Source of the DNA: an uncultured Christensenellaceae bacterium
Lineage (GTDB): Bacteria > Bacillota > Clostridia > Christensenellales > DTU072
Direction of reading: 5' to 3'
NCBI GenBank assembly: GCA_964613035.1
Contig: CAZTFQ010000007.1
Span: forward strand, 8,409 to 72,408
Length of the DNA: 64,000 nucleotides
The notes under the pieces were generated by a model that worked only from the letters and a program-made list of their open reading frames with translations, did no database searches and was not told the DNA's origin. Shown here one piece after another: positions 2,535-17,414 of the stretch. How positions within the stretch are numbered: the stretch's first letter is position 1; each line of letters opens with the position of its first letter. Position numbers and translations under genes: made by a program.

Positions 2535-2591
2535 AATTAACAACTATTCTGAAAAAGTGCCAACTAGCGCATAACTATAAGAGGAACTAAA

Positions 2592-3731
2592 ATGTATTTA
2601 CTGATAGGAATATTCGTCGCGTTGCATTTGTTGTCGGTCTTCATCAACTGGGACGAGGCAGAGAAAAACGGCGATAAAAAGATACTCTGGATGTTACTCG
2701 GACTCGTCTTCGGGATGTTCAGCGTAATCGCGTATAAAATCATGATGCTGGCGAGGAAGAAGAAAAACGCTCCTCGCCTCGCCGGCAGAAGCAGAAAGAA
2801 ACTGACCCGCGAGGCTCTCAAAGAGGACCTGACGGGTACCGCCATGGCGTCTCTTCCTTTCATCGGCTTCTTATGCTTCGTACTTATTCCTACGGCGATA
2901 TCCCTCGTAATGAGCTTATTCGAACTGCATTCTTACGATATTTCCAAGGCGACTTTCGTAGGATTTCAGAATTTCAATACTTTAATTTTCGAAGAACCTT
3001 CCGGGAGCAAATACGTCCCGGAAATGGTCAATAAAGCTTTCGTCAACACTCTGACGTACTGTATCAGCGTGCCGCTCAGAATAGTGGTGACCGTATTCAT
3101 CGCCAATCTTATGGCTAAGCCTATCCGCAAGTGCGTCAGCGCGCCCGTCAGAATAATATTGTTTCTCCCGTCGCTGTGCTCTTCCGTAGGCGTCACTCTG
3201 ATGTGGCAGTGGATACTCCAAGCCGACTACGGCGTCATCAACGTCGTCCTCGGCGCGCTGGGACTTAAAAAGGTCAACTTCATGGGCGACCCCGACTGGT
3301 TCTGGTTCAGCGTTAACTTGATGGTGCTGTGGATGAGAGCGACCAATATAGTCAATCTTCAGGCGGCTCTCGCCAACGTCTCCGAGAGCTCCATCGAGGC
3401 GGCTAAGATAGACGGCGCGTCCAAGAGACAGATCTTCTGGAAGATTACCTTGCCGTCCATTACGCCAACGCTCTTCTACGTGGTTACTATGGACCTCATC
3501 GCCGCTCTCCAGGAGTCCGGTATAATGCAATTCGTTACGACCAACGGCGTCGGTCCCGACTTCAAGGCGGTCACGTTGAGTTACTACGTATATCGTATGG
3601 CGTTCACCTCTATAGCGACGGACGGTCTGGGACTGGGCTGCGCGCTGGCACTGATGATGGCTATATTCATCATTACTCTTAACAAGCTCAACTTCCGTCT
3701 GGGCGACAGATGGGTCAGCTACGACGTATAA
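2592..3731 (+). CDS. Carbohydrate ABC transporter permease (MalF/UgpA-like) with extra N-terminal hydrophobic hairpin
   Basis: EAA loop EAAKIDGASKRQIFWKITLPSITP, FVGFQNF motif, multiple TM helices. Confidence 0.92.
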   Translation: MYLLIGIFVALHLLSVFINWDEAEKNGDKKILWMLLGLVFGMFSVIAYKIMMLARKKKNAPRLAGRSRKKLTREALKEDLTGTAMASLPFIGFLCFVLIPTAISLVMSLFELHSYDISKATFVGFQNFNTLIFEEPSGSKYVPEMVNKAFVNTLTYCISVPLRIVVTVFIANLMAKPIRKCVSAPVRIILFLPSLCSSVGVTLMWQWILQADYGVINVVLGALGLKKVNFMGDPDWFWFSVNLMVLWMRATNIVNLQAALANVSESSIEAAKIDGASKRQIFWKITLPSITPTLFYVVTMDLIAALQESGIMQFVTTNGVGPDFKAVTLSYYVYRMAFTSIATDGLGLGCALALMMAIFIITLNKLNFRLGDRWVSYDV

Positions 3732-3741
3732 GGAGAGTACC

Positions 3742-4767
3742 ATGAACGCAAAAGTAAAAGCAGTATTCAGTACAATCTCCTCAAAACTGAAATGCGCCCT
3801 CGTCGCGACGGGCGAATTTCTGCTGAAAGTCAAAACCAAAGTCGTAGGATTGCTTAAAAAAGATAAAAATCAATTCTCGCCGGAAGAGCTCCATAAGCAC
3901 GGCAGAGTATCTATGAGAAGGAAGCATAAGCTCAACGCGGCTTCTCCTATGGACTATATTCTCGCTATCCTTATAGGTCTCATCGTACTGGCTCCGTTCT
4001 ATATATTGATTATTACGTCCCTTATGACCGAGCAGGAATCCAACTACGCGGAGTTCCACTGGTGGCCTCAGATGGGCGCTACCCTCAAGTCGTATTACGA
4101 AGTACTCTTCACCAGTACGGGCGACGCGTCGGTCCTTTCGGGACTGATGAACACCTTCCTTATATACATCCCCGCCGTTACGGTAGGAATTCTTTCTTCC
4201 GCCATGGCGGCGTACGCCTTCGCCAAGATAAGGTTCAGAGCGTCCAAGTTTATGTTCAGCGTATTGATGTTCACGATGATGTTCCCCAACGTCATGAACA
4301 TGGTCGCGTCCTTCCTTATATTCGATACCATCGGCTGGATTAACACGCCTCTGCCGTTGATGATACCCGAGATGCTCGGTAACGTCAGCGCGATGTTCTT
4401 CTTCCGACAATATTTCCTGTCCGTACCGGACGTTATGATAAGTGCCGCCAAGGTAGACGGCGCGGGGCAGTTCAGAATATTCACTCAGATAGCCCTGCCT
4501 ATAGCCAAGCCGGTCCTTCTCGCTCAATGGATATTCAGATTCATGGCAGGTTACAACGACTACATGAATCCGCTCATTTATTTGCAGGACGCCAGGATGT
4601 ACACCGTCCAGCTGTCTCTTGCATTCTTCGTCGACCCCTATACGCAGAACTGGCCTCTACGTATGGCGGGCGTCGTCGTATCGCTCATCCCGATGCTCAT
4701 CATATATGCCTTCGCCCAAAAATACATAACCCAGGGGATGGCTATCACGTCGGGTCTTAAGGACTGA
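3742..4767 (+). CDS. Carbohydrate ABC transporter permease (MalG/UgpE-like)
   Basis: AYAFAKIRF, SAAKVDGAGQFRIFTQIALPIAKP, NDYMNPLIYL; C-terminal QKYITQGMA..GLK. Confidence 0.93.
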   Translation: MNAKVKAVFSTISSKLKCALVATGEFLLKVKTKVVGLLKKDKNQFSPEELHKHGRVSMRRKHKLNAASPMDYILAILIGLIVLAPFYILIITSLMTEQESNYAEFHWWPQMGATLKSYYEVLFTSTGDASVLSGLMNTFLIYIPAVTVGILSSAMAAYAFAKIRFRASKFMFSVLMFTMMFPNVMNMVASFLIFDTIGWINTPLPLMIPEMLGNVSAMFFFRQYFLSVPDVMISAAKVDGAGQFRIFTQIALPIAKPVLLAQWIFRFMAGYNDYMNPLIYLQDARMYTVQLSLAFFVDPYTQNWPLRMAGVVVSLIPMLIIYAFAQKYITQGMAITSGLKD

Positions 4768-4836: not shown

Positions 4837-6987
4837 ATGAAAAAACTCAAAACGTTATCGATAATTATCGTATGTGCGATATGCGTCCTGACGATGATCG
4901 TTGTCGCCGGTTGCGACGACAGTGACGGTTATGTGAAGGGTTTCGCGCTGGCGCACTACGATGCCGCCGCGGAAGACGGCGCGCTGGACAGCAAGTATTT
5001 TTATCGTAACGACCTCAACGTAATCGGAGGCGACGCGGATATAGAATACGTGCCGATCGAGCGCGATCCCGTATATGGCGGATATTATTATCTGTACACT
5101 TCCGACAACGTTGCCAACAGTATCAACGACTATTGGAAAGAAGGTCAACCTCACACGGCTACTACGAGAGAAGAAGCCGGCTTGAATCTCGAGTACAGAC
5201 TCGTCACGACGTGCCTTCGTTCCAAGGACCTCAACGATTGGGAACTGTGTGGCGGCGTGGACGGAGAATTCGCCGTGTATCTGGAAGCCGACAGCTGGAT
5301 CGAGAGACACTGCTGGGCACCGGAAGTCATCTACGACGAGAAGACCGAGAAGTATTATATGTACTTCAATGCCATGAGTTACGACAACTTCGACGCAATC
5401 GACGAAGAAACTCAATACGGCAACCGTTCAGAGTTTTATTACGATACGTTCTATATGTGCATAATGGAATCCGATACCCCCGTCGGACCCTTCAAGCAGG
5501 TAGAGAGCGAGTCTTATTACGCGGGGCTCGAGTACGACGATATGAACGACGCCCAAAAGGCGACCTACGACGAGACCGGAAAACTCAGCAACCTTAACGG
5601 AAAAATTTTAACTCACCGCAATCCTTCGGTGAACTTCACTTACGACCTCGGAGTAGAGGGAGAAGTTTTCTCCGTTATCGACTTCAGTCCTTTCTTCGAC
5701 GACGACGGCACTCTGTATATGTCGTTTGTCCGTCATATCTCCGGCGGCCACGACCACAACTGTCTGTGGATAATGAGGATGAAGGACATGGTTACGCCCG
5801 ATTTCGATACGCTGACCTTGGTAGGAAAATGTAATTACGAATACGTAACCGACGAGAACGTAGGCGATACCGCTTCCGAGAGAATCGACGAGTCCGCCTA
5901 TACGCTTCACAATTGTTTTGCCATCCCCTCGACCGCGGACTACGCGCAGGACGTCAAAGCCACTCTGGAGTCTACCGCGATATCGGAGGACGGATACTAT
6001 CACATTCAGGGTGAAGACGGCGTAGAGCAGTGGGAGAAGAAAGGCGACACTTGGAACAAAGTCGGCTGGTCCAACGAAGGGACCGTCAACGAAGGACCTC
6101 ATATGTGGAAAGTCGGCGACAGGTATCTGTATATGTATTCCCCCAGAGGATATTCCGACCAGAATTACGACGCCTCTCAGGCATACAGCGACGACGGACC
6201 GCTCGGACCGTATCACAAGCTGCCCTCCATGCCCGGCGCCGTTATGAGCAGAGGTTTCAACGACTACGTCAATCAACATATGTCCGGTACGGGTCACCAC
6301 GCCATAGTGGAAGTGGAAGGCGAGTTGTACTGCATTTACTACGCGCACTCGAATCCCTTCGACGGTTCCAGCTCGACCTATGACGGCAGATTCTATGCCT
6401 TCGACAAGCTGGTAGTGATAGAAGACGCGACTTACGGCAAGCTGCTCGCAGGTCTCGGACCCACACAGACCGTCCAAGCCAAGCCCGCTTCTTATACGGG
6501 ACTGCACAACGTCGCGCCCAAGGCAACCGTCAGCGCGACCAACTGCGACAAAGATACCCTCAAGTATCTCAACGACGATTTCTTCGTGTGTCACGAATAT
6601 TTCGCCGACAGAGAATTCGTTGCCAACGGCAAGACGACCATCACGATGAAGTTCGACACGCCGGTAGCGATTTCCGCAATAATGATTTACAACACCCTCG
6701 ACTATCAATCGGCGTTTTCTAAGATAGACTCAATTCAGTTTACTCTGTCGGAAGCCGCCGCTTGGATGGACGACGCGCATAAAGAGCTCAGAGATTGCTA
6801 TATCGAAAACGTCGGTTTCAGCTCCGACTACGTCGATACCGAGATGCGCAAGATAAGCACGGGCGCGGCATCGGTCGTTTCGTTCAACGAAATAACCGTC
6901 AGCGAAATCAAAATCACGATTTCCGCTAAGATAAGCGACACTTCCGAGACCATCAAAGTCTCCGATATCGTAGTGCTGGGTAAATAG
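4837..6987 (+). CDS. GH43-family glycoside hydrolase lipoprotein with C-terminal beta-sandwich module
   Basis: Lipobox VAGC. Five-bladed propeller motifs WAPEVIYD..YYMYF, SDTPVGPF, VIDFSPFFDDDG, NEGP, GTGHHAIV, YCIYYAH. The C-terminal ~150 aa (NVAPKATVSAT...ISAIMIYN) resembles a discoidin/CBM32-like domain. Confidence 0.8.
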   Translation: MKKLKTLSIIIVCAICVLTMIVVAGCDDSDGYVKGFALAHYDAAAEDGALDSKYFYRNDLNVIGGDADIEYVPIERDPVYGGYYYLYTSDNVANSINDYWKEGQPHTATTREEAGLNLEYRLVTTCLRSKDLNDWELCGGVDGEFAVYLEADSWIERHCWAPEVIYDEKTEKYYMYFNAMSYDNFDAIDEETQYGNRSEFYYDTFYMCIMESDTPVGPFKQVESESYYAGLEYDDMNDAQKATYDETGKLSNLNGKILTHRNPSVNFTYDLGVEGEVFSVIDFSPFFDDDGTLYMSFVRHISGGHDHNCLWIMRMKDMVTPDFDTLTLVGKCNYEYVTDENVGDTASERIDESAYTLHNCFAIPSTADYAQDVKATLESTAISEDGYYHIQGEDGVEQWEKKGDTWNKVGWSNEGTVNEGPHMWKVGDRYLYMYSPRGYSDQNYDASQAYSDDGPLGPYHKLPSMPGAVMSRGFNDYVNQHMSGTGHHAIVEVEGELYCIYYAHSNPFDGSSSTYDGRFYAFDKLVVIEDATYGKLLAGLGPTQTVQAKPASYTGLHNVAPKATVSATNCDKDTLKYLNDDFFVCHEYFADREFVANGKTTITMKFDTPVAISAIMIYNTLDYQSAFSKIDSIQFTLSEAAAWMDDAHKELRDCYIENVGFSSDYVDTEMRKISTGAASVVSFNEITVSEIKITISAKISDTSETIKVSDIVVLGK

Positions 6988-6998
6988 GGGTGAATAAT

Positions 6999-9900
6999 AT
7001 GAAAAAAATAGGTAATAGATTATTTTTCGTAATAGCCGTTATACTGGTGGTAGCGTTCGCGATAGTCTGTTTCGCAGGCTGCAACGACGACCCCGATGCC
7101 GGCAAAGTAGAATATGACAACGAGTACGAATGGGAGTACGACCGCGAGTTTCAGGGAGAACCCGACGAGGGTATGAACATAGACGGCGTGCTGGACGAGG
7201 ACGTATGGAAAGACAGTAATCGTAAATGGTTGACTTTCTCCGAAAAGGGCGCCACAGTCTCGTACACTTCTTACTTCACGCAGAAGGGTCTCTATCTGGC
7301 TTCGACCGTAACCGACCCCAATCTGACTTGGACCGCGCGTCTCAATTTCAACGACGCCACGGCTCTCAACTCCGCGTTTTGCTATCTGATTACGTCGGAA
7401 AACGTCGAGACGCTCCAGATGTTCACTCTGTACAGATTCGCTTTCGACAGTAAGAACAAAGCGTCCCGCGAGCAGACTCCTTTCGCGGCAAAAGCCGTCA
7501 CCGACGGAGATATAGAAGCAGGTGAAGCGACCGTGATGACGGGTGAGTTTTTTGCGACTTGGGACGACCTCAATATGGAAGTCAGCGAAGAGACCGGCAT
7601 GCCTAATCTGGTCAACGTCATTCCCAAGTACAGAGTAGTGGTCGATACTGACGACAATACCGCCAACAAATGGATTATGCCGCTCTTCGCGGAAGAATAC
7701 AGACTACATTGTTATTCTCGTTTTAACGAGAACGGTTACATGAACGTCGACGCGGAAGACGCCGTATGGGGCAACGCCGCCAACGGTATTTCCAAGTCCG
7801 ACGGCTGGTCGATATCCGAAGACGATCCCACCGTCGTTACGTCCGATAAGGCTCACAGCCAAGGTATCTTCTTGACCGACAAGCGTTCCGACAGATATAT
7901 CTACAGCGTCGATATGCAACTGGTCGACGGAATAGCCGGCGTAGACGGCTCCGACGGTATTTTCCGTGCGGGTATCGCCACGATGTGCGAGAACAGTAAC
8001 GATTTCACTACGCTCCTCGTCGAAGGAAAAGGTCTCGAGAACAATCAGCTCAGAATGTATCGCCTGAAAATCGGTCCTTGGGAATATACCAATGCCGTCA
8101 ATCAGAAGCTTTCTTCCGAGTATAATTTCGAAGAGAGAAACCAAACAGTCACTCTTAAAGTTATAAAAGACGGCGCCAATTTCTACTACTTCGCGGAAGG
8201 CGAGCTGATATACTTCAATACGGAAGAAGACCTCGCGGGCGAGTGCTGCCCCGGCGTATATACGCTGAGCACCGAGGCGACTTTCTCCAATCCTCAATTC
8301 ACGGACTTCTCCGACAACGCGGAAGAACTCCGCAGAATGATTAGCGAATACGTCTATCTGATCGACGCTCCCGCAAGCATATCCGGCGGAAAGGTAGAAG
8401 TAGACAACACCGCTATCGACAAAAACGATACCAATAAGACCGTTACTATTACGATTAAACCCAACAACGGCTACGTTTTGAGTTCCTTCACCGTCAACGA
8501 CGAAGATAAGTTCGATTACGTGGTCGAGAATATCGACAACGGTCTGTTGACTCTGGAAGTCGACGAGAGTATCGCTATCGATGCTGAATTCACGCGTTTT
8601 GACAGAGGCAACGAAGTCGTCAAGATCCGCGGTACCGTCTATTCCAGCAACGGAACGGGAGTCCTCGGCGGAGCCAAAATCAAAGCGTACGATTTAAGCA
8701 ATCCTCTCTTCTGCTACGATATGGGTACCAACACCCAGGGCAGATTCGAGCTGTCTTTCCTTAAGCCTCAAGATTCCGCTTACGTGATCGGCGACAAAGA
8801 ATACGTCGTCGGTTCCGAGTACGTAGTCATGGTCAGCTTCGAAGACGGCGGATTCCCCGTTGTCAAGAATTTCAGTGCAAATTCGGCGGACGCCAACGGT
8901 ATCATCGAGTATAGTTTTAACACAGAAAGCACCTACGATATAGTCGGCGACAAGCCCGCGTATGAAGAATTCAATATGGACGGCTCGTACACCGCGACCG
9001 CCACTGCAATCGACAATACGGCGATCTTCATCAATAATTCATCGGAAATTCAAGGTAAAAACTGGACCGCTTCCGTCAACGTCAGGACTTCTACCATGAC
9101 CATCTGGCAGGTATACGGCGTTGCAGTCAAATACGCCGACGGACAATATATGATTCTCGGTCCCTCTCAGAGAGGTTCTGCAAGCTGGGTACAGGTAATA
9201 CCCGTCGTTAACGGCAGTCACAAAGGATTCTACGATGCGACCAATAGCGATATGTCCGCAGTAATCGCTTCCTATACGGACGAAGAGAACCTCAACGTCA
9301 AAGTAACGTACTATGAATCCGAGTATTACGTATACCTCAACGACGTCCTCTTCCGTATATTCAGTGCGGCAGAGCTCGGAGTGGGAGAATACGGCGAGCC
9401 GATAGAAGTCGGCTTCGGTTTCAGACTGGACGACAGTCTGCCTAAGAGCGTCACGCTCTCCGATTGGGGATACGAAATAGACGTAGAGGCGCCCGTAGTG
9501 CCCGCAGGCAACAGTCTCGAGCTGATGGGTATTATGCCTGCGTCTCAACAGTTTAACGATGACGGTTCTTACACCGCGACCGCCGAGGCAATTACAACTA
9601 CGGCACTTTTGATTAAAGATTCCGCAGAAATAGCCGGCAAGAGCTGGACGGCTTCCGTCAACATCAAGACTTCAACCATGACCATTTGGCAGGTGTTCGG
9701 CGTCGCAGTCAAATACTCTAACGGCGACTACGCCATCATCGGACCTTCTCAGAGAGGTTCTGCAGGCTGGACCCAGATAATACCCGTTGTCAACGGCATT
9801 CATAAGGGATTCTACGATTCTACCAATATCAATATGACGGGCGTGCTCGGTTCCTATTTAGCTCAAGAAAACCTCAGCGTAAAAGTGACCTACTACGGAG

Positions 9901-12900
9901 CCAAGTATTACGTGTACCTCAACGACGTACTCTTCCGTATCTTCACTACGACGGAAATGGGTGTAGCCGGATCCGGCGAGCCGATAGAAGTGGGCTTCGG
10001 TTTCAGATTGGACGACAGCCTCCCCAAGAGCGTCACGCTCTCAGACTGGAGCTACAGCGCAGACGTTGAGGAGCCCGTGATAGAAGAAGGCGAATATACT
10101 CTGGTCGGCAATATGCCCGCTACCCAGAGCTTCGATGACGACGGCTCTTACTCCGTTACTACCAAGCAACTGGTCGATACCGCAATCCTTATCAACGAGT
10201 CCAAAGAGATCCGTGGTAATAATTGGACGGCTTCCGTCAATATCAAGACCTCCACGCTCTCCGTCTGGCAAGTATACGGAATTGCAATTCAATACTCCAA
10301 CGGCGATTACGCTATCGTAGGACCTTCGCAGAGAGGAGATTCCGCTACTGTAATGATAGTGCCCGTGGTCAACGCTTATCATAAGGGATTCTATGAATCG
10401 ACCAACAGTATGAACATAGCGTCGAACGTCATAGACAAGTATTTGAGTCAAGAAAACCTTAACGTAAAAGTAACTTACTACGAGTCTCAATACTACGTGT
10501 ATCTCAACGACGTCCTCTTCCGCGTATTCAGTGCGGCAGAACTCGGCGTAAGCGAGAGCGGAGACCCCGTTAAGGTCGGCTTCGGCTTCAGAATCGACCA
10601 CTTCGGCGACGTAGACACCAGAAGCCTTACCTTGTCCGACTGGAGCTACTCTATAGAGTCGGAAAAGCCCGAACTGCCCGAGGACAAAGGTCTGGAATTG
10701 GTCGGCAACGCGCCGTACGGACAAGTCTTCAACTCGGACGGTTCCTGGACCGTGACTACCACCAAGTGGACCTCTACCGGTATCCTTATAAAAGATTCCG
10801 TCGCAATCCAAAACAAGAATTGGACCGCTTCCGTCAACGTCAAAGTAGACACGCTCACCTTCTGGCAGGTATACGGAATAGCTATTAAGTATTCAGATGG
10901 AAGACATATAGTTATCGGTGTCAGCCAGAGAAACTCGGTCGAGTCGGTACAAATAGCCGCTCTGCTGAACAACGCGTACGCAAGTTACGTCGGTTACGAC
11001 ACGACCAACGGCATCGGCATTAATAACGAACTGGCGATATATGGTACTAAAGAAAATCTCAACGTCAAGATCACGTACTACGATTCTCTGTACTACGTGT
11101 ACCTCAACGACGTCTTGTACCGTATATTCAGCGCGGCGGATCTCGGAATAAGCGAATACGGCACTCCCGTCCAAGTCGGATTCGGTTTCAGAATCGACGA
11201 TTATAACGGTGTAACTTCCAGAAGCCTCACTTTCTCCGACTGGGGATATGAAATAGACGTAGAGAAACCCGCGCCGGTCAAGAGCAACAATCTGACGGTA
11301 GTAGGTGCAGTACCTGCCGAGTCGTATGTTGCGGAAGACGGTTCCTACACTGCCAAGACCGAACAACCCGCGATGATTGCTACGGGCGTATTGATGAATG
11401 CGTCTAGCGAGATTCAGGGTAAGAACTGGACCGCGGAAGTCAATGTCAAGACTGCTACGCTCACGTTATGGCAGACCTACGGAATAGCTATTAAGTACTC
11501 TAACGACAGTTATGTCGTTATCGGCGCAAGCCAGAGAGGTTCTGCCGACAAGATCATAATAGTATCGTGGCTCAACGGTGGTTACGTAGGAGAATTCGAT
11601 CAGTCCAACACCGTCGGACTAGCAGACGTGCTGGGACAGTATCTTAACAATGAAAACCTTAACGTTAAAGTGACCTACTACAACGCTCAGTACTACGTGT
11701 ATCTCAATGACGTCCTGTTCCGCGTATTCAGTGCGGCAGAACTCGGAGTAGGCGAGTGCGGCGAGCCCGTGGCGGTAGGCTTCGGTCTCAGAATAGACGA
11801 CTTTAACACGACGACCACGCCTAGCCTGACGTTCTCCGATTGGGGATACAGTATAGACGTAGCCGAGCCCGCGGCTGTCAGCAATGACTTAACTCTGGTC
11901 GGAGTATCGCCCTATACCTTGGTGCACAATCCCGACGATTCCTACACGGCGACCGCTAATGAGATTGTCACTACAGGACTCCTTATCAACACTTCCGGCG
12001 ATATCCAAGGTAAGAGTTGGACCGCTCAGGTCAATATCAAGACCTCGACGCTATCTTTCTGGCAGGTATACGGAATAGCAATTCAATATTCCGACGACAA
12101 TTATGCCATCATAGGACCTTCTCAGAGAGAAAATTCCACAAGTATTGTTATGATAGTGCCCGTAGTCAACGGTTATCATAAGGGATTCTATGAATCGACC
12201 AACACCGTCGATATGCCCAATGTGATTAATACGTATTTGTCGCAAGATAACCTTAAGGTAAAAGTGACGTACTACAATTCGCAATACTACGTGTACCTTA
12301 ACGACGTCCTCTTCCGTATATTCAGTGCGGCGGAGCTCGGAGTGGCGGAATTAGGCGAGCCCGTAAAAGTCGGCTTCGGTTTCAGACTGGACGACAGTCT
12401 GCCTAAGAGTCTCACTTTCTCCGACTTCTCATACGGTATCAATTTGGACGAGCCTAAGGTCGGTACCAACAATCTGACGGTAGTAGGCAGTACGCCCGCT
12501 TCTCAAGTCTGCAACGCGGACGGCTCATACACGGTGACCACCGACGCACTCGTTAATACGGGTTTACTCATCGGTTCTTCCAGCGACGTCACCGGCAAAA
12601 ACTGGACCGCTCGCGTCAAAGTCAGTACTGCGGAGCTGTCCAACTGGCAGACCTACGGAATCGCAGTCAAGTACGAGGGCGGCAACTATGCCGTTATCGG
12701 CGTCAGCCAGAGAGGATCTACCGATTGGATTCAGACGATATCGATTCTCGACGCCAATTGGAAAGGATTCTTGAATACGAGCAACAGCATCGGCATGGCT
12801 AAGGTTCTGGGCGAGTATATGAGTAAAGAATGGCTGGATATCAAGGTTACGTATTACGATTCTCAGTACTACGTGTATCTTAACGACGTCCTGTTCCGCG

Positions 12901-13664
12901 TAGCGAGTGCGGCAGAATTTGAAATAGGCGATTGCGGAGCTCCCGTACAGGTCGGTTTCGGTTACAGAATCGACGACTTCACGGGTGTGGACTCCAGAAG
13001 TCTTACCTTCTCCGACTGGGGATACGAAATAGACGTGGATGCGCCTGCGGCTGTGAACAACGACATGACCATAATCGGTAATACTCCTAACGTGTTGGTT
13101 CTCAGTCCCGACGGTACTTATACCGCAAGGACCGCGGTTACAAGTGGGGTCAATACGGGGATTATGCCTAATTCTTCTACCGAGATAGCGGGTAAGAACT
13201 GGTCCGCGGAAGTCAATTTCAAGACCTCTACGCTCACGTTATGGCAGACCTACGGAATAGCGATTAAGTATTCCACCGGGAATTACGTTATTCTGGGTGC
13301 CAGCCAGAGAGGTTCCGCGAATGCGATTGCAATGGTGGATTGGCTCGATTCCTCTTATAAGGGAGAGTTCACGACGACCAACGATAGCGAAGAGATGACC
13401 GGCATACTCGATTCTTATCTTAACGAAGAGAACCTTAACGTTAAAGTGACGTACTACGAGTCTCAGTACTACGTATATCTCAACGGCGTCCTCTTCCGTA
13501 CGCTGAGTGCGACGGAGCTCGGAGTAGAAGACTTCGGAGAGCCCGTGCAGGTCGGTATCGGCTTCAGAATGGACGACTGGAGTACGTCGACCACGCCGAG
13601 CCTTAGCTTCTCCGACTGGAGTTACGGCGTAGACGTAGCCGCTCCTCAAGGTAGCGAGGAGTAA
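6999..13664 (+). CDS. Giant surface lipoprotein (2,221 aa): DOMON/CBM9-like, lectin-like and Ig-like domains, then 8 tandem ~195-aa repeats
   Basis: ATG 6999 follows the AGGGG RBS (the track's GTG 6990 abuts it). Lipobox FAGC. IDGVLDEDVW (CBM9/DOMON-like); VTITIKPNNGYVLSSFTVN (B-repeat-like); IRGTVYS..VLGGAKI (carboxypeptidase-regulatory-like). No catalytic motif recognised. Confidence 0.8.
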   Translation: MKKIGNRLFFVIAVILVVAFAIVCFAGCNDDPDAGKVEYDNEYEWEYDREFQGEPDEGMNIDGVLDEDVWKDSNRKWLTFSEKGATVSYTSYFTQKGLYLASTVTDPNLTWTARLNFNDATALNSAFCYLITSENVETLQMFTLYRFAFDSKNKASREQTPFAAKAVTDGDIEAGEATVMTGEFFATWDDLNMEVSEETGMPNLVNVIPKYRVVVDTDDNTANKWIMPLFAEEYRLHCYSRFNENGYMNVDAEDAVWGNAANGISKSDGWSISEDDPTVVTSDKAHSQGIFLTDKRSDRYIYSVDMQLVDGIAGVDGSDGIFRAGIATMCENSNDFTTLLVEGKGLENNQLRMYRLKIGPWEYTNAVNQKLSSEYNFEERNQTVTLKVIKDGANFYYFAEGELIYFNTEEDLAGECCPGVYTLSTEATFSNPQFTDFSDNAEELRRMISEYVYLIDAPASISGGKVEVDNTAIDKNDTNKTVTITIKPNNGYVLSSFTVNDEDKFDYVVENIDNGLLTLEVDESIAIDAEFTRFDRGNEVVKIRGTVYSSNGTGVLGGAKIKAYDLSNPLFCYDMGTNTQGRFELSFLKPQDSAYVIGDKEYVVGSEYVVMVSFEDGGFPVVKNFSANSADANGIIEYSFNTESTYDIVGDKPAYEEFNMDGSYTATATAIDNTAIFINNSSEIQGKNWTASVNVRTSTMTIWQVYGVAVKYADGQYMILGPSQRGSASWVQVIPVVNGSHKGFYDATNSDMSAVIASYTDEENLNVKVTYYESEYYVYLNDVLFRIFSAAELGVGEYGEPIEVGFGFRLDDSLPKSVTLSDWGYEIDVEAPVVPAGNSLELMGIMPASQQFNDDGSYTATAEAITTTALLIKDSAEIAGKSWTASVNIKTSTMTIWQVFGVAVKYSNGDYAIIGPSQRGSAGWTQIIPVVNGIHKGFYDSTNINMTGVLGSYLAQENLSVKVTYYGAKYYVYLNDVLFRIFTTTEMGVAGSGEPIEVGFGFRLDDSLPKSVTLSDWSYSADVEEPVIEEGEYTLVGNMPATQSFDDDGSYSVTTKQLVDTAILINESKEIRGNNWTASVNIKTSTLSVWQVYGIAIQYSNGDYAIVGPSQRGDSATVMIVPVVNAYHKGFYESTNSMNIASNVIDKYLSQENLNVKVTYYESQYYVYLNDVLFRVFSAAELGVSESGDPVKVGFGFRIDHFGDVDTRSLTLSDWSYSIESEKPELPEDKGLELVGNAPYGQVFNSDGSWTVTTTKWTSTGILIKDSVAIQNKNWTASVNVKVDTLTFWQVYGIAIKYSDGRHIVIGVSQRNSVESVQIAALLNNAYASYVGYDTTNGIGINNELAIYGTKENLNVKITYYDSLYYVYLNDVLYRIFSAADLGISEYGTPVQVGFGFRIDDYNGVTSRSLTFSDWGYEIDVEKPAPVKSNNLTVVGAVPAESYVAEDGSYTAKTEQPAMIATGVLMNASSEIQGKNWTAEVNVKTATLTLWQTYGIAIKYSNDSYVVIGASQRGSADKIIIVSWLNGGYVGEFDQSNTVGLADVLGQYLNNENLNVKVTYYNAQYYVYLNDVLFRVFSAAELGVGECGEPVAVGFGLRIDDFNTTTTPSLTFSDWGYSIDVAEPAAVSNDLTLVGVSPYTLVHNPDDSYTATANEIVTTGLLINTSGDIQGKSWTAQVNIKTSTLSFWQVYGIAIQYSDDNYAIIGPSQRENSTSIVMIVPVVNGYHKGFYESTNTVDMPNVINTYLSQDNLKVKVTYYNSQYYVYLNDVLFRIFSAAELGVAELGEPVKVGFGFRLDDSLPKSLTFSDFSYGINLDEPKVGTNNLTVVGSTPASQVCNADGSYTVTTDALVNTGLLIGSSSDVTGKNWTARVKVSTAELSNWQTYGIAVKYEGGNYAVIGVSQRGSTDWIQTISILDANWKGFLNTSNSIGMAKVLGEYMSKEWLDIKVTYYDSQYYVYLNDVLFRVASAAEFEIGDCGAPVQVGFGYRIDDFTGVDSRSLTFSDWGYEIDVDAPAAVNNDMTIIGNTPNVLVLSPDGTYTARTAVTSGVNTGIMPNSSTEIAGKNWSAEVNFKTSTLTLWQTYGIAIKYSTGNYVILGASQRGSANAIAMVDWLDSSYKGEFTTTNDSEEMTGILDSYLNEENLNVKVTYYESQYYVYLNGVLFRTLSATELGVEDFGEPVQVGIGFRMDDWSTSTTPSLSFSDWSYGVDVAAPQGSEE
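8934..13661 (+). repeat. Eight tandem intragenic repeats of ~580-600 bp
   Basis: Units start at about 8934, 9516, 10095, 10692, 11292, 11889, 12474 and 13065. Each carries DGSY, GK(N/S)WTA.VN.KT, WQ.YG.A.KY, G(P/V/A)SQR, NLNVKVTYY..YYVYLNDVLFR, VGFG.R.DD, SLT(L/F)SDW. Confidence 0.97.
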
Positions 13665-13675
13665 CAGAAAAAGTT

Positions 13676-13701
13676 TCGTGCTCCCCGGACAGGGAGCACG
13701 A
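13676..13701. other. Strong intergenic stem-loop without downstream U-tract (mRNA stabiliser or weak terminator)
   Basis: TCGTGCTCCC-CGGACA-GGGAGCACGA: perfect 10-bp stem between the giant lipoprotein gene and the ABC ATPase gene. Confidence 0.7.
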
Positions 13702-13751: not shown

Positions 13752-14474
13752 ATGGCTGAAATAGAATTAAAAGACGTAAGTGTAATCTACAGTAACAAAA
13801 GGACCGATACCGTTGCGCTGAACAACTTCAGCGCAACGTTTCGTGACGGAATGAACGTCATCGTCGGATATTCCGGATGCGGCAAGACGACTCTTCTTAA
13901 TTGTATATTGGGACTGGTGAATTACGACGGGAAGATATTTTTCGACGGTACGGATCTGGCAGACGTCAGAATCAAGGACCGTAATTTTTCTTTCGTATCG
14001 CAAGAATACGTGCTCTTTCCTCACAATACGGTGTTCGACAATATCGCGTTTCCTCTTAAAGTAATGGGCGCTAGCAGGCAGGAGATTATAGAGAGAGTGA
14101 AGCAAGTCGCGGAAATGACCGACATCGCTCATTGTCTGTCGCGGAGCCCCAAGCATATTTCGGGCGGTCAGCAACAGAGGACTGCGGTCGCCAGAGCGCT
14201 CGTCAAGCGTCCGTCGGTCTGTCTTATGGACGAGGCTTTTTCCAACACGGACGAATTGGCTCGTGCCAAAATGTGCGTCTGGGTGAAGAATCTGTTGAAA
14301 AAAGAAGGCTGTATGGCTATCTACGTCACGCATAACTTCAGAGAAGCACTTTCTCTCGCGGACACCCTCTACGTTATGGACGAGGGGCAATTGTCGATAT
14401 GCGGCACTCCGGAAGAGGTCTATAAATCCGACAACGAAGTCGTCCGCAATCTGAAAGAAGGGCTGTTTTTTTAA
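13752..14474 (+). CDS. ABC transporter ATP-binding protein (short, no C-terminal TOBE domain)
   Basis: Walker A GYSGCGKTT, Q-loop, signature ISGGQQQR, Walker B LMDE, H-loop YVTH. Confidence 0.93.
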   Translation: MAEIELKDVSVIYSNKRTDTVALNNFSATFRDGMNVIVGYSGCGKTTLLNCILGLVNYDGKIFFDGTDLADVRIKDRNFSFVSQEYVLFPHNTVFDNIAFPLKVMGASRQEIIERVKQVAEMTDIAHCLSRSPKHISGGQQQRTAVARALVKRPSVCLMDEAFSNTDELARAKMCVWVKNLLKKEGCMAIYVTHNFREALSLADTLYVMDEGQLSICGTPEEVYKSDNEVVRNLKEGLFF

Positions 14475-14495
14475 CGATGAAAAAGAGGTGATTGA

Positions 14496-14978
14496 ATGAT
14501 AGCTCTTTTTTCCGATACAGCCGCGGAAGCGGTGAAGAAGAAAAGAAAAAAATATATTCTGATAAGCCTCGTTACGGTCTTAATCGTCTTAATAGCGAGT
14601 ATAACGCTATGCTTTTTCGTCGACGACGACAACGCGGTTCTTTTTGAGATAATAGATATAGTATTATGTTCCGCGGGATTTTGCACGGCGTTGTTTTTTA
14701 TATTTAACGTTATTGTCCCTCTCGGCGACAGGCAAAAGCATCTCTACAGAATGCTCGACGGCGACAAACGTATCGTCTCGGGCGAAGTCTCCGAGTGCGG
14801 CGGAGCGATTACTCTGTCTAAAAACGTCTCCGCATACGAGATTACTCTCCGTACCGACGACAATGCTGAAAATCTCCTCTATTGGGATACGGAATACGCT
14901 CTCCCCGATATCGTCGGCAAGAGAATCGATTTTCAAGTAGTGCAAAACATAGTCTACGGGTACGAAGAAAAAGAATGA
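14496..14978 (+). CDS. Hypothetical membrane protein (2 TM plus small OB-like soluble domain)
   Basis: RBS GAGGTG; two hydrophobic helices; ATGA overlap with the next gene. Confidence 0.7.
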   Translation: MIALFSDTAAEAVKKKRKKYILISLVTVLIVLIASITLCFFVDDDNAVLFEIIDIVLCSAGFCTALFFIFNVIVPLGDRQKHLYRMLDGDKRIVSGEVSECGGAITLSKNVSAYEITLRTDDNAENLLYWDTEYALPDIVGKRIDFQVVQNIVYGYEEKE

Positions 14979-15577
14979 AAGCGTTTTTTAAAAAGATAAA
15001 GAATAATATTTGGGCGTATCTTCTGTGCATCTTCGTAGTCATAATAATGTGGAGCGGAGTGTTCAGCTTCCTCACCGTAGTGGACGAGGAAGAAAAGGTG
15101 TCCGTCTTCATAGGAAGTTATTCTCAGAGCTTCACTCGGACATCCGAGCTGGAAGAGTCCCGTCCCGATTATATCAAGAAGGTGGAAGTAACCGCCAGAG
15201 TTCTCAATTCACTGTATTTCGACGTGTATCTGAGTATGTTCGGTTACAGCAACGCGGATATATTGATTTTGCCGGAGAGCCTGGCGACCGCGGAAAACTG
15301 TGAATTGTATTTCGCGGAGATATCCCCCGAGTACGTCGAAGAGCTGGACAATCTCGGAGTATTCGAGTATAACGATAAAGTCTACGGACTGAAAGTACAC
15401 TCCAAAGGTATCGACGACGGATTGATTACGTGTATCGATTATTCCGCGGGAGACGAGGACGAAAACTATTATATGTTCTTCAGAAACAATTCTCTCCATA
15501 TCGGAGAGATGTCGGAAGAGGACGGCGAGACGGACGTCGCCGCGATAGAAATAGCTAAGAAGCTGCTTGAGTTATGA
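14975..15577 (+). CDS. Hypothetical membrane-anchored protein (single N-terminal TM, acidic extracellular domain)
   Basis: Probable start ATG 14975 (MKAFFKKIK...) overlapping the upstream stop; TM AYLLCIFVVIIMWSGVFSFL; stop overlaps the next ATG. Confidence 0.7.
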   Translation: MKAFFKKIKNNIWAYLLCIFVVIIMWSGVFSFLTVVDEEEKVSVFIGSYSQSFTRTSELEESRPDYIKKVEVTARVLNSLYFDVYLSMFGYSNADILILPESLATAENCELYFAEISPEYVEELDNLGVFEYNDKVYGLKVHSKGIDDGLITCIDYSAGDEDENYYMFFRNNSLHIGEMSEEDGETDVAAIEIAKKLLEL

Positions 15578-16497
15578 GAAAAGTAAGAAGCGCAAAAGAA
15601 GACTTTACCGAGCAAGATTTGCCTGCTACCAGAAAACAGGTCTTTTTCGATTGCTACAGAGAACAATTCTCTTTGGTTATGCGACTGGGTTTTGTATGCG
15701 TCGCACTCGTTTTGCCCGCAGTCATCGCGATGATGCTTAAGGACAATTATATAGTCTCCGAGACTGCTAAGCTCACTGAAATAACCTCCGAGACTCTCGC
15801 GCCGATATATTACGCGGCGAGGATGAGATACGGGATTATGTCCGTGTTGACGTTCACGTTGTTCTTCGCAATCTTTGCGGGGCTCGTGAGAATAATACGT
15901 CAATTCGTATGGAGAGAGCCTGTCTTCTGGAAAGAAGACTTCGCGGCGGGATTGAAGAACGATTCCGGCAGATTCGCACTGGTCGCGTTTTTCGTAGCCG
16001 TACTCGATTACATTATAGGATTACTCGACGGATCCGTACTGACTTATATATTCTTCGGAATATTCGTCGGATTGATTTTGCCCGTCATGATATGGACCCT
16101 CCTCCAGACGGTGTATTATAAAATCGGATTTTTCGGAAGTCTCAAAAACGGTATTTTATATTATTTGAAGACGCTTCCGGTTACCTTATTGTTGGTTTTG
16201 GTTACCGTATTGCCGTTTTGGTTGATAACGGAACTGGTTCCGATACCGCTCGTCAAATATCTGGCGATATTCTTATTGGGACTTGTATACATCGTCCCGA
16301 TTACAATGATTTGGCTACTCTTCGCCAACAAATATTTCGACGAGATTTTGAATAAAAAGCAGTACCCGAGTATCTATAGAAGGGGACTGAGGCCTCTCGA
16401 GGAAGACACCGACGAAGCGACCCCGGAAGAGCCCGAGGACCCCGAACAAGTACAATCCGAACAAGAGTCGGAGTCCGTGCAAGAACAGAAACAATAG
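15574..16497 (+). CDS. Integral membrane protein, DUF624/YesL-like
   Basis: About 6 TM helices. DFAAGLKND and FFGSLKNGILY resemble YesL-type proteins found in sugar loci. Acidic C-terminal tail. Confidence 0.6.
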   Translation: MRKVRSAKEDFTEQDLPATRKQVFFDCYREQFSLVMRLGFVCVALVLPAVIAMMLKDNYIVSETAKLTEITSETLAPIYYAARMRYGIMSVLTFTLFFAIFAGLVRIIRQFVWREPVFWKEDFAAGLKNDSGRFALVAFFVAVLDYIIGLLDGSVLTYIFFGIFVGLILPVMIWTLLQTVYYKIGFFGSLKNGILYYLKTLPVTLLLVLVTVLPFWLITELVPIPLVKYLAIFLLGLVYIVPITMIWLLFANKYFDEILNKKQYPSIYRRGLRPLEEDTDEATPEEPEDPEQVQSEQESESVQEQKQ

Positions 16498-16553: not shown

Positions 16554-17414
16554 ATGATTTATATTGCAGGAAGTCTGAATATGGATATGGTGATAACCAG
16601 CCCTTATATCCCTAAAGAGGGCGAGACGATTACGGGCGGCGATTTCATCACCAACGGCGGCGGAAAAGGTGCCAATCAGGCAGTGGCGTGCGCCAAGCTC
16701 GGCGGCAAGGTTGCGATGTGCGGAGCGGTCGGAGACGATATCTTCGGCGTGACTCTTATCGACAATCTGAATAAGGTCGGCGTCGACACGACTCATATAA
16801 GCGTGGTTAAGGGAGTCTCTACGGGGATAGCCGTCATTATAGTCACCGACAATAACAATCGCATCATCCTGGATAAAGGCGCCAATGCCCGTCTGACGAA
16901 AGAAAACATCCGCGACTTCTTAAAAGACGCTCAAGCGGGGGATATATATCTTACTCAGCTCGAGAACCCCGTCGACGTAGTGGGATACGGACTGAAATTG
17001 GCTAAGGAAAAGGGACTCTTTACGATTTTGAATCCCGCTCCCGCCGATACGGATATATCGGAATATTTCGAGTACGTCGATTTAATCACGCCCAACGAAA
17101 CCGAGTCGGAACTCTTCGGAGGCAAAGAGTCGCTGTTTTCCGAAGGCATCGAGAAGATCGTCACGACTCTCGGCGGCAGAGGATACGAGATTGCCTCCAA
17201 GGAAGGCTCCGTCGTATATCCTTGTATGAAAGTTAACGTCGTCGATACTACGGCAGCGGGCGATACCCTGTGCGGCGGGCTGGCGGTCGGACTCTCGGAA
17301 AACATGTCGCTCGAGGACGCTTGTGCATTGGGTAGTAAAGCTGCATCTATCGCGTGCGAAAAGAGAGGCGCGCAACAGTCTATTCCGACAAGAAAAGAGG
17401 TTGAAACCTATTAA
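16554..17414 (+). CDS. rbsK: Ribokinase (PfkB family)
   Basis: GSLNMD, GGKGANQAVA, VGDDIFG, ILNPAP, PNETE, VDTTAAGDT motifs. Confidence 0.88.
   Translation: MIYIAGSLNMDMVITSPYIPKEGETITGGDFITNGGGKGANQAVACAKLGGKVAMCGAVGDDIFGVTLIDNLNKVGVDTTHISVVKGVSTGIAVIIVTDNNNRIILDKGANARLTKENIRDFLKDAQAGDIYLTQLENPVDVVGYGLKLAKEKGLFTILNPAPADTDISEYFEYVDLITPNETESELFGGKESLFSEGIEKIVTTLGGRGYEIASKEGSVVYPCMKVNVVDTTAAGDTLCGGLAVGLSENMSLEDACALGSKAASIACEKRGAQQSIPTRKEVETY

What the first reader, a model, noticed from the sequence alone, without database searches (positions are those of the whole stretch)
6999..13664. 2,221-aa lipoprotein with eight tandem copies of an unrecognised ~195-aa beta-rich domain
Seen: eight clear repeats with invariant Trp/Tyr/Arg/Gln/Asp positions (WQ.YG, SQR, GF.R.DD, SDW) and a strand pattern like ConA/DUF1080-type beta-sandwiches (LNVKVTYY..YYVYLND). 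It is encoded between a GH43 gene and the ABC ATPase of a sugar locus. No catalytic motif recognised. Inference: a multivalent surface lectin array and potentially a new CBM family. The variable central loop (after SQR) differs between copies, hinting at diversified specificities.
Basis: partly seen in the sequence, partly recalled or inferred. Interest (0 to 1): 0.75.

Follow-up and report, generated by a model that had tools for sequence, protein, structure and literature searches.

The report
Eight-module surface sugar-binding lipoprotein candidate
An uncultured gut-type Clostridia bacterium encodes a real 2,221-residue lipid-anchored surface protein ending in eight copies of a rare, unclassified lectin-fold module; the protein always sits beside an unusual GH43-type sugar-cutting enzyme and a sugar importer, so it most likely captures a polysaccharide for that enzyme, but no binding has been shown.

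Summary
ORF 6999-13664 (+) encodes a 2,221-aa lipoprotein with eight tandem 191-198-aa units. They are 47-69% identical, old (dS 0.8-2.5) and under purifying selection (dN/dS 0.17-0.39).

No unit reaches the threshold of any Pfam or NCBIfam model, and none matches a PDB sequence. AlphaFold2 gives a confident ConA/LamG-type jelly roll (pLDDT 83). The nearest relatives are DUF1349 (3o12), legume lectins, GH43 C-terminal domains and Laminin_G_3, the last below threshold.

The family is very rare. Only 18 of 1.84 billion protein representatives match, and about 700 sampled genomes of the same class, including the same-genus genome, have none.

The unit behaves like a carbohydrate-binding module. 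It occurs in 1-8 copies, is fused once to a bona fide GH43 catalytic domain, and occurs behind two different N-terminal modules.

The ~615-aa N-terminal module contains a CBM66-like domain. In all 8 loci examined, its gene lies directly downstream of a divergent GH43-like lipoprotein gene; in every locus whose upstream flank is held, a binding-protein ABC importer precedes the pair.

Best reading (about 0.6): a non-catalytic, multivalent surface glycan-capture protein and candidate new CBM family. Carbohydrate binding, the ligand and "diversified specificities" are unproven; the variable loop shows no positive selection.

The parts
6999..13664 (+). Whole gene: 2,221-aa lipoprotein (P0001), stop codon included
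   Evidence: RBS GGGGTGA 5 nt upstream of the ATG
6999..7082 (+). Signal peptide and lipobox (aa 1-28, FAGC, lipidated Cys28)
   Evidence: Read directly from the sequence. The lipobox Cys is also present in P0002/8/11/13, the C10 paralogue, the L015 ORF and P0022.
7083..7799 (+). N-module domain 1 (aa 29-267), fold unknown. It is conserved in all N-module homologues (motif MxIDGxLDExVW).
   Evidence: 45-63% identity to homologues (A2). AlphaFold2 pLDDT is below 50. No Pfam or PDB hit.
7800..8312 (+). N-module domain 2 (aa ~268-438), a LamG/CBM66-like beta-sandwich
   Evidence: Foldseek match to B. subtilis CBM66 4b1m: target-normalised TM 0.74, rmsd 3.1 A over 168 columns. Model pLDDT is 60-89.
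8352..8597 (+). N-module domain 3 (aa ~452-533), Ig-like / InlB B-repeat-like
   Evidence: Flg_new_2 E 8e-4, below cut-off; pLDDT about 90
8616..8921 (+). N-module domain 4 (aa ~540-641), transthyretin / CarboxypepD_reg-like beta-sandwich
   Evidence: PF13620 E 6.5e-4, below cut-off; pLDDT about 90
8928..9500 (+). Unit 1 (aa 644-834)
   Evidence: AlphaFold2 model m315ebbea04e1, pLDDT 83, pTM 0.84
9510..10082 (+). Unit 2 (aa 838-1028)
10089..10676 (+). Unit 3 (aa 1031-1226)
10686..11276 (+). Unit 4 (aa 1230-1426)
11286..11876 (+). Unit 5 (aa 1430-1626)
11883..12461 (+). Unit 6 (aa 1629-1821)
12468..13052 (+). Unit 7 (aa 1824-2018)
13059..13652 (+). Unit 8 (aa 2021-2218)
4837..6987 (+). Partner gene: 716-aa divergent GH43-like lipoprotein (P0003, lipobox VAGC). 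Candidate catalytic residues are in RDP (aa ~77), IDFSP (aa ~282) and NEGP (aa ~419).
   Evidence: PDB GH43 4qqs E 2e-8 and 3kst E 3e-8. It lies immediately upstream of the N-module protein in 8/8 loci. The motif reading rests on my own knowledge of GH43 (for positions).
636..4767 (+). Sugar ABC importer: 632-aa solute-binding protein and two permeases
   Evidence: Pfam SBP_bac_1 and BPD_transp_1. The same order is seen in L014, L034 and L035.
13752..14474 (+). ABC ATPase: nucleotide-binding domain of the GlcV/UgpC/MalK type without the C-terminal regulatory domain
   Evidence: Syntenic in L014-L017.
14496..16497 (+). Three small predicted membrane proteins (160, up to 231 and 307 aa) with no family match, conserved in synteny after the ATPase
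16554..17414 (+). Ribokinase-type PfkB kinase
   Evidence: PF00294 E 3e-59. TIGR02152 296.8 bits against a cut-off of 299.65.
17462..21169 (+). 1,235-aa protein with Listeria-Bacteroides repeats and a SASA-type carbohydrate esterase domain
   Evidence: A SASA gene is syntenic in L015 and L016.

Best explanation
P0001 is most likely a non-catalytic, multivalent glycan-capture protein on the cell surface of a Gram-positive (monoderm) Clostridia bacterium. It is the functional counterpart of Bacteroidota SusE/F-type surface glycan-binding proteins and of multi-CBM surface proteins of gut Firmicutes.

Shown:
- It is lipid-anchored through Cys28.
- Next to the membrane sits a conserved ~615-aa module made of an unknown domain, a CBM66-like LamG sandwich, an Ig-like domain and a transthyretin-like domain.
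- Distal to this are eight ConA/LamG-fold units joined by short (D/E)xP linkers.
- The protein type is always encoded directly after a divergent GH43-like surface lipoprotein; a binding-protein ABC importer precedes the pair wherever the upstream flank is held.

Inferred:
- The eight units form a beads-on-a-string array long enough to reach through and beyond the cell wall.
- Each unit binds the same or closely related sugar epitopes of a polysaccharide through the conserved aromatic and polar residues (W60, Q61, S80-Q81-R82, K125, Y128/Y129, Y133-N138, R166, D168). Eightfold avidity would hold the polymer at the surface.
- The adjacent GH43-like lipoprotein and the SASA esterase then trim the polymer, and the SBP/permease/ATPase system imports the products. 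The only cytoplasmic enzyme in the locus is a ribokinase-type kinase, which hints at a pentofuranose product.

On this reading the unit is a candidate new carbohydrate-binding-module family within the ConA-like clan.
For: - Fold: AlphaFold2 gives pLDDT 83 and pTM 0.84. Foldseek probability is 1.0 to many ConA-like lectin or glycan-binding domains: legume lectins, Lactococcus YwfG, the M. jannaschii lectin domain, GH43 C-terminal domains of 5jow, 6mly and 7k1r, and DUF1349 entries 3o12 and 3mep.
- Modular behaviour typical of CBMs: one unit is fused to a Pfam-positive GH43 catalytic domain in P0014 (PF04616 E 4.8e-25, unit E 3e-31). There are 1-8 copies per protein and two unrelated N-terminal contexts.
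- Context: the GH43-like gene is immediately upstream in 8/8 loci (window, own C10, L014, L015, L021, L022/23, L034, L035). SBP and permeases lie upstream, and the sugar-type ATPase downstream in the window and L014-L017.
- The N-module holds a CBM66-like domain.
- Selection: dN/dS between units is 0.17-0.39 at near-saturated dS, so all eight units are kept functional.
- The eight units are monophyletic (98/99 support), with pairing 3-6, 4-7, 5-8 and 1-2. The array therefore grew by block duplication in this lineage, meaning higher valency was gained and retained.
- No invariant Glu or His and no GH16 or PL7 motif across the family.
Against: - No binding experiment exists, and no ligand is identified.
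- I could not obtain model coordinates, so the clustering of the conserved polar and aromatic residues on one face is untested.
- Many invariant residues (W, Y, G) may simply be fold determinants.
- Foldseek TM-scores are moderate (0.5-0.62), and the closest structures (3o12, 3mep; DUF1349) have no known function.
- ConA-like domains also serve as protein-binding or purely structural modules.
- The family is so rare (18 representatives) that no characterised relative supports the function.
Confidence: 0.6

Rival explanations
1. Structural stalk. The eight units are inert spacer domains that only project something through the cell wall, and any ligand binding resides in the N-terminal module (CBM66-like domain) or nowhere.
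For: Tandem beta-sandwich arrays are the usual build of Gram-positive surface stalks (general knowledge). Most family-wide invariant residues are W, Y and G, typical of a fold core. The N-module, not the unit array, is the universally conserved part: P0022 has the N-module and the GH43 partner but no canonical units.
Against: The lipid anchor is N-terminal, so the N-module is proximal to the membrane and the units are distal. A stalk would lie between the anchor and the functional head, not beyond it. Stalk domains are normally ~90-aa Ig-like folds, not 195-aa lectin folds. A single unit is fused to a GH43 enzyme in P0014, where a spacer role makes little sense. Polar residues S80-Q81-R82, R166 and D168 are conserved.
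Confidence: 0.15
2. Adhesin. The array binds glycans of host mucus, other microbes or food particles for attachment rather than for nutrient acquisition.
For: It is a multivalent lectin-fold array on the surface. Fold hits include lectin and receptor-binding domains of adhesin-like and toxin-like proteins.
Against: The protein is strictly embedded between a GH43-like enzyme gene and ABC sugar-importer genes in all loci. Attachment and nutrient capture are not mutually exclusive.
Confidence: 0.1
3. Scaffold. The units are cohesin-like protein-docking modules that line up several copies of the partner GH43-like enzyme or other enzymes, forming a lipoprotein-based mini-cellulosome.
For: There are eight similar jelly-roll modules in a row, as in scaffoldins. 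The gene pair with one enzyme is strictly conserved.
Against: There is no cohesin or dockerin Pfam hit in P0001 or P0003. The partner is itself lipid-anchored (lipobox VAGC), so it needs no docking. The pair is conserved with the N-module even where canonical units are absent (P0022). A unit is covalently fused to a GH43 in P0014.
Confidence: 0.07
4. Catalytic units. Each unit is an enzyme of a new ConA-fold glycoside hydrolase or polysaccharide lyase family (as GH16 and PL7 are ConA-fold).
For: PL7 alginate lyases and a GH16 transglycosylase are among the fold hits (TM ~0.5). Polar residues Q61, S80-Q81-R82, R166 and D168 are invariant within P0001.
Against: No Glu or His is invariant in the family. 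Only D18, W60, G64, N140 (N138 in unit-1 numbering) and G164 are invariant across 22 diverse units. The GH16 ExDxxE motif and the PL7 Arg/Gln/His/Tyr set are therefore not met. To my knowledge, eightfold tandem catalytic domains are unprecedented.
Confidence: 0.04

Closest known systems
CBM66 (LamG-like carbohydrate-binding module of Bacillus subtilis exo-levanase SacC; PDB 4azz/4b1m) and Pfam Laminin_G_3 (PF13385)
   Same: Both have a ConA/LamG jelly-roll beta-sandwich of ~160-195 aa appended to carbohydrate-active proteins. Five of 22 units give sub-threshold Laminin_G_3 hits. The N-module domain 2 of P0001 superposes on CBM66 with target-normalised TM 0.74.
   Different: The eight units themselves do not reach the Laminin_G_3 threshold, and CBM66 was not among their top 50 fold hits. 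The ligand is unknown. They occur as an eightfold tandem array on a lipoprotein rather than as a single module on an enzyme.
DUF1349 (PF07081; yeast YJL217W 3o12, Erwinia ECA2234 3mep)
   Same: This is the best structural match (TM 0.60/0.62, E 2.4e-6) and the only PDB sequence touched by the family profile (E 0.23). One unit hits PF07081 at E 0.023.
   Different: All sequence scores are far below significance. DUF1349 proteins are single-domain, cytosolic or unknown in location, and of unknown function.
C-terminal ConA-like domain of two-domain GH43 enzymes (Pfam GH43_C2 PF17851; e.g. BoGH43A 5jow, EcXyl43 7k1r)
   Same: They share the fold class and the position behind a GH43 catalytic domain, as in P0014. 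There is a weak GH43_C2 hit to unit 6 (E 0.004, 17.5 bits).
   Different: The hit is below the Pfam cut-off (22.7 bits). In P0001 the units are detached from any catalytic domain and multiplied eightfold.
Surface glycan-binding proteins of polysaccharide-utilisation loci (Bacteroidota SusE/SusF/SGBP-B) and multi-CBM surface proteins of gut Firmicutes (my own knowledge; not searched here)
   Same: These are also lipid-anchored or surface-attached, non-catalytic, tandem beta-sandwich binding modules, encoded next to surface glycanases and a dedicated importer.
   Different: The phylum and envelope differ, the importer is an ABC system rather than SusC/D, the domain family is unrelated, and the copy number is far higher.
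Cellulosomal scaffoldins (cohesin arrays)
   Same: Both have many similar jelly-roll modules in tandem on a surface protein associated with glycanases.
   Different: There is no cohesin or dockerin signature, and the partner enzyme carries its own lipid anchor.

Membership tests
ConA-like lectin/glucanase superfamily (fold level) | Two-sheet jelly-roll beta-sandwich of ~150-250 aa superposable on ConA/LamG/legume-lectin domains | tested here: met
   AlphaFold2 unit 1 has pLDDT 83 and pTM 0.84 with 13 strands. 132 PDB matches at E<=1e-3; the 50 listed have ConA-like or related lectin-type beta-sandwich folds, with TM 0.39-0.62.
Pfam Laminin_G_3 (PF13385) | Score at or above the gathering threshold (27.6 bits) | tested here: not met
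   None of the 8 units of P0001 hits it. Five of 22 family units hit below threshold, best E 2.5e-6. Whole P0005 scores 25.8 bits.
Pfam GH43_C2 (PF17851) | Score at or above the gathering threshold (22.7 bits) | tested here: not met
   17.5 bits, E 0.0037, one unit only
Pfam DUF1349 (PF07081) | Significant profile match | tested here: not met
   One of 22 units at E 0.023. PDB profile hit to 3o12 at E 0.23. The similarity is structural only.
Carbohydrate-binding module (CAZy sense) | Contiguous, independently folding module found within carbohydrate-active enzymes | tested here: met
   P0014 is a GH43 catalytic domain (PF04616, E 4.8e-25) with one unit at aa 476-663. The fold is discrete.
Carbohydrate-binding module (CAZy sense) | Experimentally demonstrated carbohydrate binding by at least one member | not testable with these tools
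   No characterised member exists. No PDB, Pfam or NCBIfam relative was found.
Existing CAZy CBM families (sequence membership) | Match to a CAZy/dbCAN family model | not tested
   No CAZy or dbCAN library was available. Pfam CBM models gave no hit.
Bacterial lipoprotein | Signal peptide with positively charged n-region and hydrophobic h-region, plus a lipobox ending in Cys | tested here: met
   MKKIGNR / LFFVIAVILVVAFAIVC / FAGC. The equivalent Cys is seen in P0002, P0008, P0011, P0013, the C10 paralogue, the L015 ORF and P0022. No SignalP/LipoP tool was available, so this is read by eye.
GH16 / PL7 (catalytic ConA-fold families) | Conserved catalytic residues (GH16 ExDxxE; PL7 Arg, Gln, His, Tyr) | tested here: not met
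   Family-wide invariant residues are only D18, W60, G64, N140 and G164, with no invariant Glu or His. The motif definitions come from my own knowledge.
Cohesin/scaffoldin | Cohesin domain signature in the array and dockerin in the partners | tested here: not met
   No cohesin or dockerin Pfam hits in P0001, P0003 or neighbours

The most novel reading that the evidence does not exclude
The ~195-aa unit founds a new carbohydrate-binding-module family. The conserved gene pair of a divergent GH43-like lipoprotein and an N-module giant lipoprotein would then define a previously undescribed Gram-positive surface glycan-capture apparatus. It would be recurrent in uncultured small-genome gut Clostridia, with C-terminal lectin-fold arrays swapped and expanded (0 to 8 units) to tune avidity or target. 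A bolder reading that the evidence does not exclude is that the array docks the partner enzymes, forming a lipoprotein-based mini-cellulosome.
Probability: 0.45. Interest if true: 0.55.

Novelty: new member of a known kind. Interest (0 to 1): 0.42.

Why it matters
Small-genome, uncultured Clostridia of the Christensenellales type are abundant gut members, and how they acquire glycans is almost unknown. This locus gives a concrete, testable model with four parts:
- a lipid-anchored eightfold lectin-fold array;
- a divergent GH43-like surface enzyme that hmmscan against Pfam does not detect;
- an esterase;
- an ABC importer with a ribokinase as the only cytoplasmic step.

If the unit binds a glycan, it becomes a new CBM family and a probe for that glycan. 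The partner enzyme may define a new GH43 subfamily or specificity. In kind, however, this is what glycobiologists expect of such loci, so the finding is useful rather than surprising.

Tried and rejected
- Tandem Repeats Finder reported nothing because the ~585-nt period exceeds its 500-nt limit. The repeats were defined at the protein level instead.
- The NCBIfam TrmL hit has no passing stretch and scores 31 bits against a 282-bit cut-off, so I treated it as noise.
- A pattern scan of 185,579 species genomes with the unit found no relative. Order-level (301 genomes) and class-level (399 scored) searches found only the own genome plus marginal hits at E ~1e-4. No named cultured host could therefore be obtained.
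- Public sequencing runs: none listed, so there is no expression or habitat evidence.
- AlphaFold2 of the N-module failed for domain 1 (pLDDT below 50), so its fold stays unknown.
- hhalign of the unit family against the four N-module domains gave only a non-significant topological similarity to domain 2 (probability 5-13%). The units are not recent copies of the N-module LamG domain.
- Protein comparison of A1 against A2 only re-found the units of P0008 contained in A2.
- Test for diversifying selection in the variable region 83-120: pN/pS was 0.39-0.98, not above 1. I rejected 'diversified specificity' as a supported claim.
- Two literature searches returned nothing on this domain or protein type.
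- Model coordinates are not exposed, so the conserved residues could not be mapped onto a surface.

Full report
**1. Observation**

The + strand ORF from ATG 6999 to the stop at 13664 encodes 2,221 aa. A GGGGTGA ribosome-binding site ends 5 nt before the ATG. The N-terminus (MKKIGNR, a hydrophobic stretch, then FAGC) is a lipoprotein signal. The same Cys-containing lipobox is present in the homologues (P0002, P0008, P0011 and P0013; the C10 paralogue; the L015 ORF; P0022).

From aa 644 to 2218 there are eight head-to-tail units of 191-198 aa. They are separated by 2-3 unaligned residues within (D/E)xP-type linkers. Pairwise identity is 47-69%, and 45 columns are invariant.

Synonymous divergence between units is near saturation (dS 0.8-2.5) and dN/dS is 0.17-0.39. 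The array is therefore old, every unit is under purifying selection, and a collapsed or expanded assembly artefact is excluded. Tandem Repeats Finder missed it only because of its 500-nt period limit.

**2. What the unit is**

None of the units reaches the threshold of any Pfam or NCBIfam model. A profile of the eight units finds no PDB sequence even at E 10.

AlphaFold2 on the eight-row alignment gives a confident model: pLDDT 83, pTM 0.84, 13 strands. The only weak part is residues ~81-110.

Foldseek against the PDB returns 132 matches at E<=1e-3. The 50 listed are ConA-like or related lectin-type beta-sandwiches:
- DUF1349 proteins 3o12 and 3mep (TM 0.6);
- PL7 lyases;
- the jelly-roll half of clostridial neurotoxin binding domains;
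- legume lectins;
- the YwfG and M. jannaschii lectin domains;
- a GH16 transglycosylase;
- the C-terminal sandwich of GH43 enzymes 5jow, 6mly and 7k1r.

Using 22 diverse units of the wider family (A3), five give sub-threshold Laminin_G_3 hits (best E 2.5e-6) and one gives a DUF1349 hit (E 0.023). The only PDB sequence touched by the profile is again 3o12, at E 0.23.

The unit is therefore a distinct, unannotated sequence family of the ConA/LamG clan.

**3. How common it is**

An exhaustive HMMER search of 1.84 billion cluster representatives found 18 proteins at E<=1e-3 and 10 at E<=1e-30.

A pattern scan of one genome per 185,579 species found none. Searches of 301 genomes of the same order and 399 scored genomes of the same class found only the window's own genome plus marginal hits. 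The same-genus genome has neither the unit nor the GH43-like partner.

The own genome (1.65 Mb, 93% complete) holds 13 units:
- eight in P0001;
- two in a 1,055-aa paralogue on contig C10;
- three in a 956-aa protein on contig C10 (identical to P0005 apart from the called start).

**4. Architectures**

There are three contexts:
- (a) The same ~615-aa N-terminal module followed by 1-8 units: P0001, P0002, P0008, P0011, P0013, the own C10 paralogue, and an uncalled 2,205-aa ORF in L015.
- (b) A different N-terminus followed by 3-4 units (1 canonical plus 2 weak in P0012): P0005, P0006, P0009, P0010, P0012.
- (c) P0014, a Pfam-positive GH43 catalytic domain (E 4.8e-25) with a single unit at its C-terminus.

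More distant N-module proteins carry divergent ConA-like units (P0017, P0019) or no canonical units at all (P0022).

In a maximum-likelihood tree the eight units of P0001 form one clade (98/99), with internal pairing 1-2, 3-6, 4-7 and 5-8. This means expansion by block duplication within this lineage.

Variable copy number, shuffling between contexts and fusion to a glycoside hydrolase are together the signature behaviour of carbohydrate-binding modules.

**5. The N-terminal module**

AlphaFold2 with five sequences modelled three of the four domains.
- Domain 2 superposes on B. subtilis CBM66 (4b1m; target-normalised TM 0.74, rmsd 3.1 A).
- Domains 3 and 4 are Ig-like and transthyretin-like, with weak Flg_new_2 and CarboxypepD_reg hits.
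- Domain 1 stayed unmodelled and unmatched.

**6. Context**

In the window the gene order is:
- SBP, permease, permease;
- GH43-like lipoprotein (P0003);
- P0001;
- short GlcV/UgpC/MalK-type ATPase;
- three small membrane proteins;
- ribokinase-type kinase (296.8 bits against the 299.65-bit equivalog cut-off);
- 1,235-aa SASA esterase with Listeria-Bacteroides repeats.

P0003 has no Pfam hit of its own. It does match the PDB GH43 entries 4qqs and 3kst (E 2e-8). By my reading it keeps the GH43 Asp/Asp/Glu motifs RDP, IDFSP and NEGP (motif knowledge is my own).

A P0003 homologue (32-72% identity) lies immediately upstream of the N-module gene in every locus I could examine: the window, own C10, L014, L015, L021, L022/L023, L034 and L035. 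Wherever the contig extends upstream, SBP and/or permease genes precede it.

Other neighbours vary: GH2, GH3-like, GH31, GH106 and SASA esterase. In L015 and L016 the GH43-plus-unit fusion P0014 lies directly before the ATPase, the position P0001 holds in the window; in L015 the N-module ORF lies just upstream of it.

The GH43-like family occurs in 15 of 301 genomes of the order but in no other genome of the own family. The locus therefore looks like an accessory, probably horizontally acquired, trait.

**7. Mechanism proposed**

Shown:
- a lipid anchor;
- the domain order with the N-module proximal and the lectin-fold array distal;
- the conserved pairing with a surface GH43-like enzyme and an ABC sugar importer;
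- purifying selection on all units.

Inferred:
- The array extends through and beyond the wall and binds a polysaccharide multivalently through the conserved aromatic and polar residues.
- The GH43-like enzyme and the esterase process the bound polymer.
- Oligosaccharides or monosaccharides enter through the ABC system.
- A ribokinase-type enzyme phosphorylates a pentose product.

The ligand is unknown. The GH43, SASA and ribokinase neighbours, with GH106, GH2 and GH31 in relatives, point loosely to a furanoside-bearing or pectic/arabinogalactan-type glycan.

**8. Rivals**

- Inert stalk (0.15). This is disfavoured because the units are distal to the anchor, and because one unit is fused to an enzyme.
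- Attachment adhesin (0.10). This is not exclusive of nutrient capture.
- Cohesin-like scaffold for the partner enzyme (0.07). There are no cohesin or dockerin signatures, the partner has its own anchor, and the pair is conserved even without canonical units.
- Catalytic units (0.04). No Glu or His is invariant across the family.

**9. The 'diversified specificities' idea**

Residues 83-120 are indeed the least conserved part of the unit (mean pairwise identity 0.37 against 0.72 for residues 121-170). They are also the least confident part of the model.

However, pN/pS in the closest unit pairs is 0.39-0.98 in that region, against 0.33-0.49 elsewhere. This indicates relaxed constraint at most, not positive selection. 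The idea is possible but unsupported.

**10. Verdict**

The finding is a real feature with a correct fold guess and a reasonable functional inference. The inference is now strengthened by the GH43 fusion and by the 8/8 conserved gene pairing.

It is a new, very rare sequence family of a well-known fold and a well-known functional kind (surface glycan-binding arrays). It is worth an experimental test as a candidate CBM family, but it is not conceptually surprising.

I saw the same cassette type in the L015 ORF, which suggests a recurrent design in this group.

Noticed in passing
L015 3351-9968 (+) (NCBI GCA_963618185.1, CAVEQV010000003.1): An intact 2,205-aa ORF has no gene call on record; only short minus-strand ORFs are listed there, and part of the stretch is masked. 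It has the same N-module, one canonical unit, and then repeated cassettes of Ig-like, transthyretin-like and divergent ConA-like domains, with Cys-rich CxxC...C motifs between them.
   Followed up: partly
own genome C10:26000-45900 (L013), minus strand: This is a second, paralogous locus. It holds a 729-aa GH43-like lipoprotein (60% identical to P0003), a 1,055-aa N-module lipoprotein with 2 units, a 252-aa Listeria-Bacteroides-repeat lipoprotein, a 529-aa GH3-like protein by my reading (not scanned), a 956-aa secreted protein with 3 units (P0005), a regulator-like protein, a membrane protein, a 482-aa lipoprotein, and SBP and permeases.
   Followed up: partly
window 13752-16497: The sugar-type ABC ATPase is only 240 aa, i.e. 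a nucleotide-binding domain without the MalK/UgpC regulatory domain. It is followed by three small predicted membrane proteins (160, up to 231 and 307 aa) with no family match. The same set of ATPase plus three small genes is syntenic in L015-L017 (L014 ends after the first small gene), and its role is unknown.
   Followed up: partly
window 13676-13701: An 11-bp GC-rich hairpin (TCGTGCTCCCCGGACAGGGAGCACGA) starts 12 nt after the P0001 stop codon. It has no T-tract on the + strand, whereas the scan scores it as a terminator only on the - strand. It may be a partial terminator or an mRNA-stabilising element between P0001 and the ATPase gene.
   Followed up: no
window 16554-17414: A ribokinase-type PfkB kinase scores just under the ribokinase equivalog cut-off (296.8 against 299.65 bits). 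It is the only cytoplasmic catabolic enzyme of the locus, which hints at a pentose (ribo- or arabino-furanose) product.
   Followed up: partly
window 4837-6987 (P0003) and the order-level search: The GH43-like partner has no hit when scanned against Pfam-A. It occurs in only 15 of 301 genomes of the order and in no other genome of the own family or genus. It is probably a distinct GH43 subfamily, and the locus is probably horizontally acquired.
   Followed up: partly
L035 15632-17923 (+): A second, shorter N-module protein (763 aa) lies directly after the 2,227-aa N-module protein P0017, in a locus with GH106, GH43 and GH31 genes.
   Followed up: no
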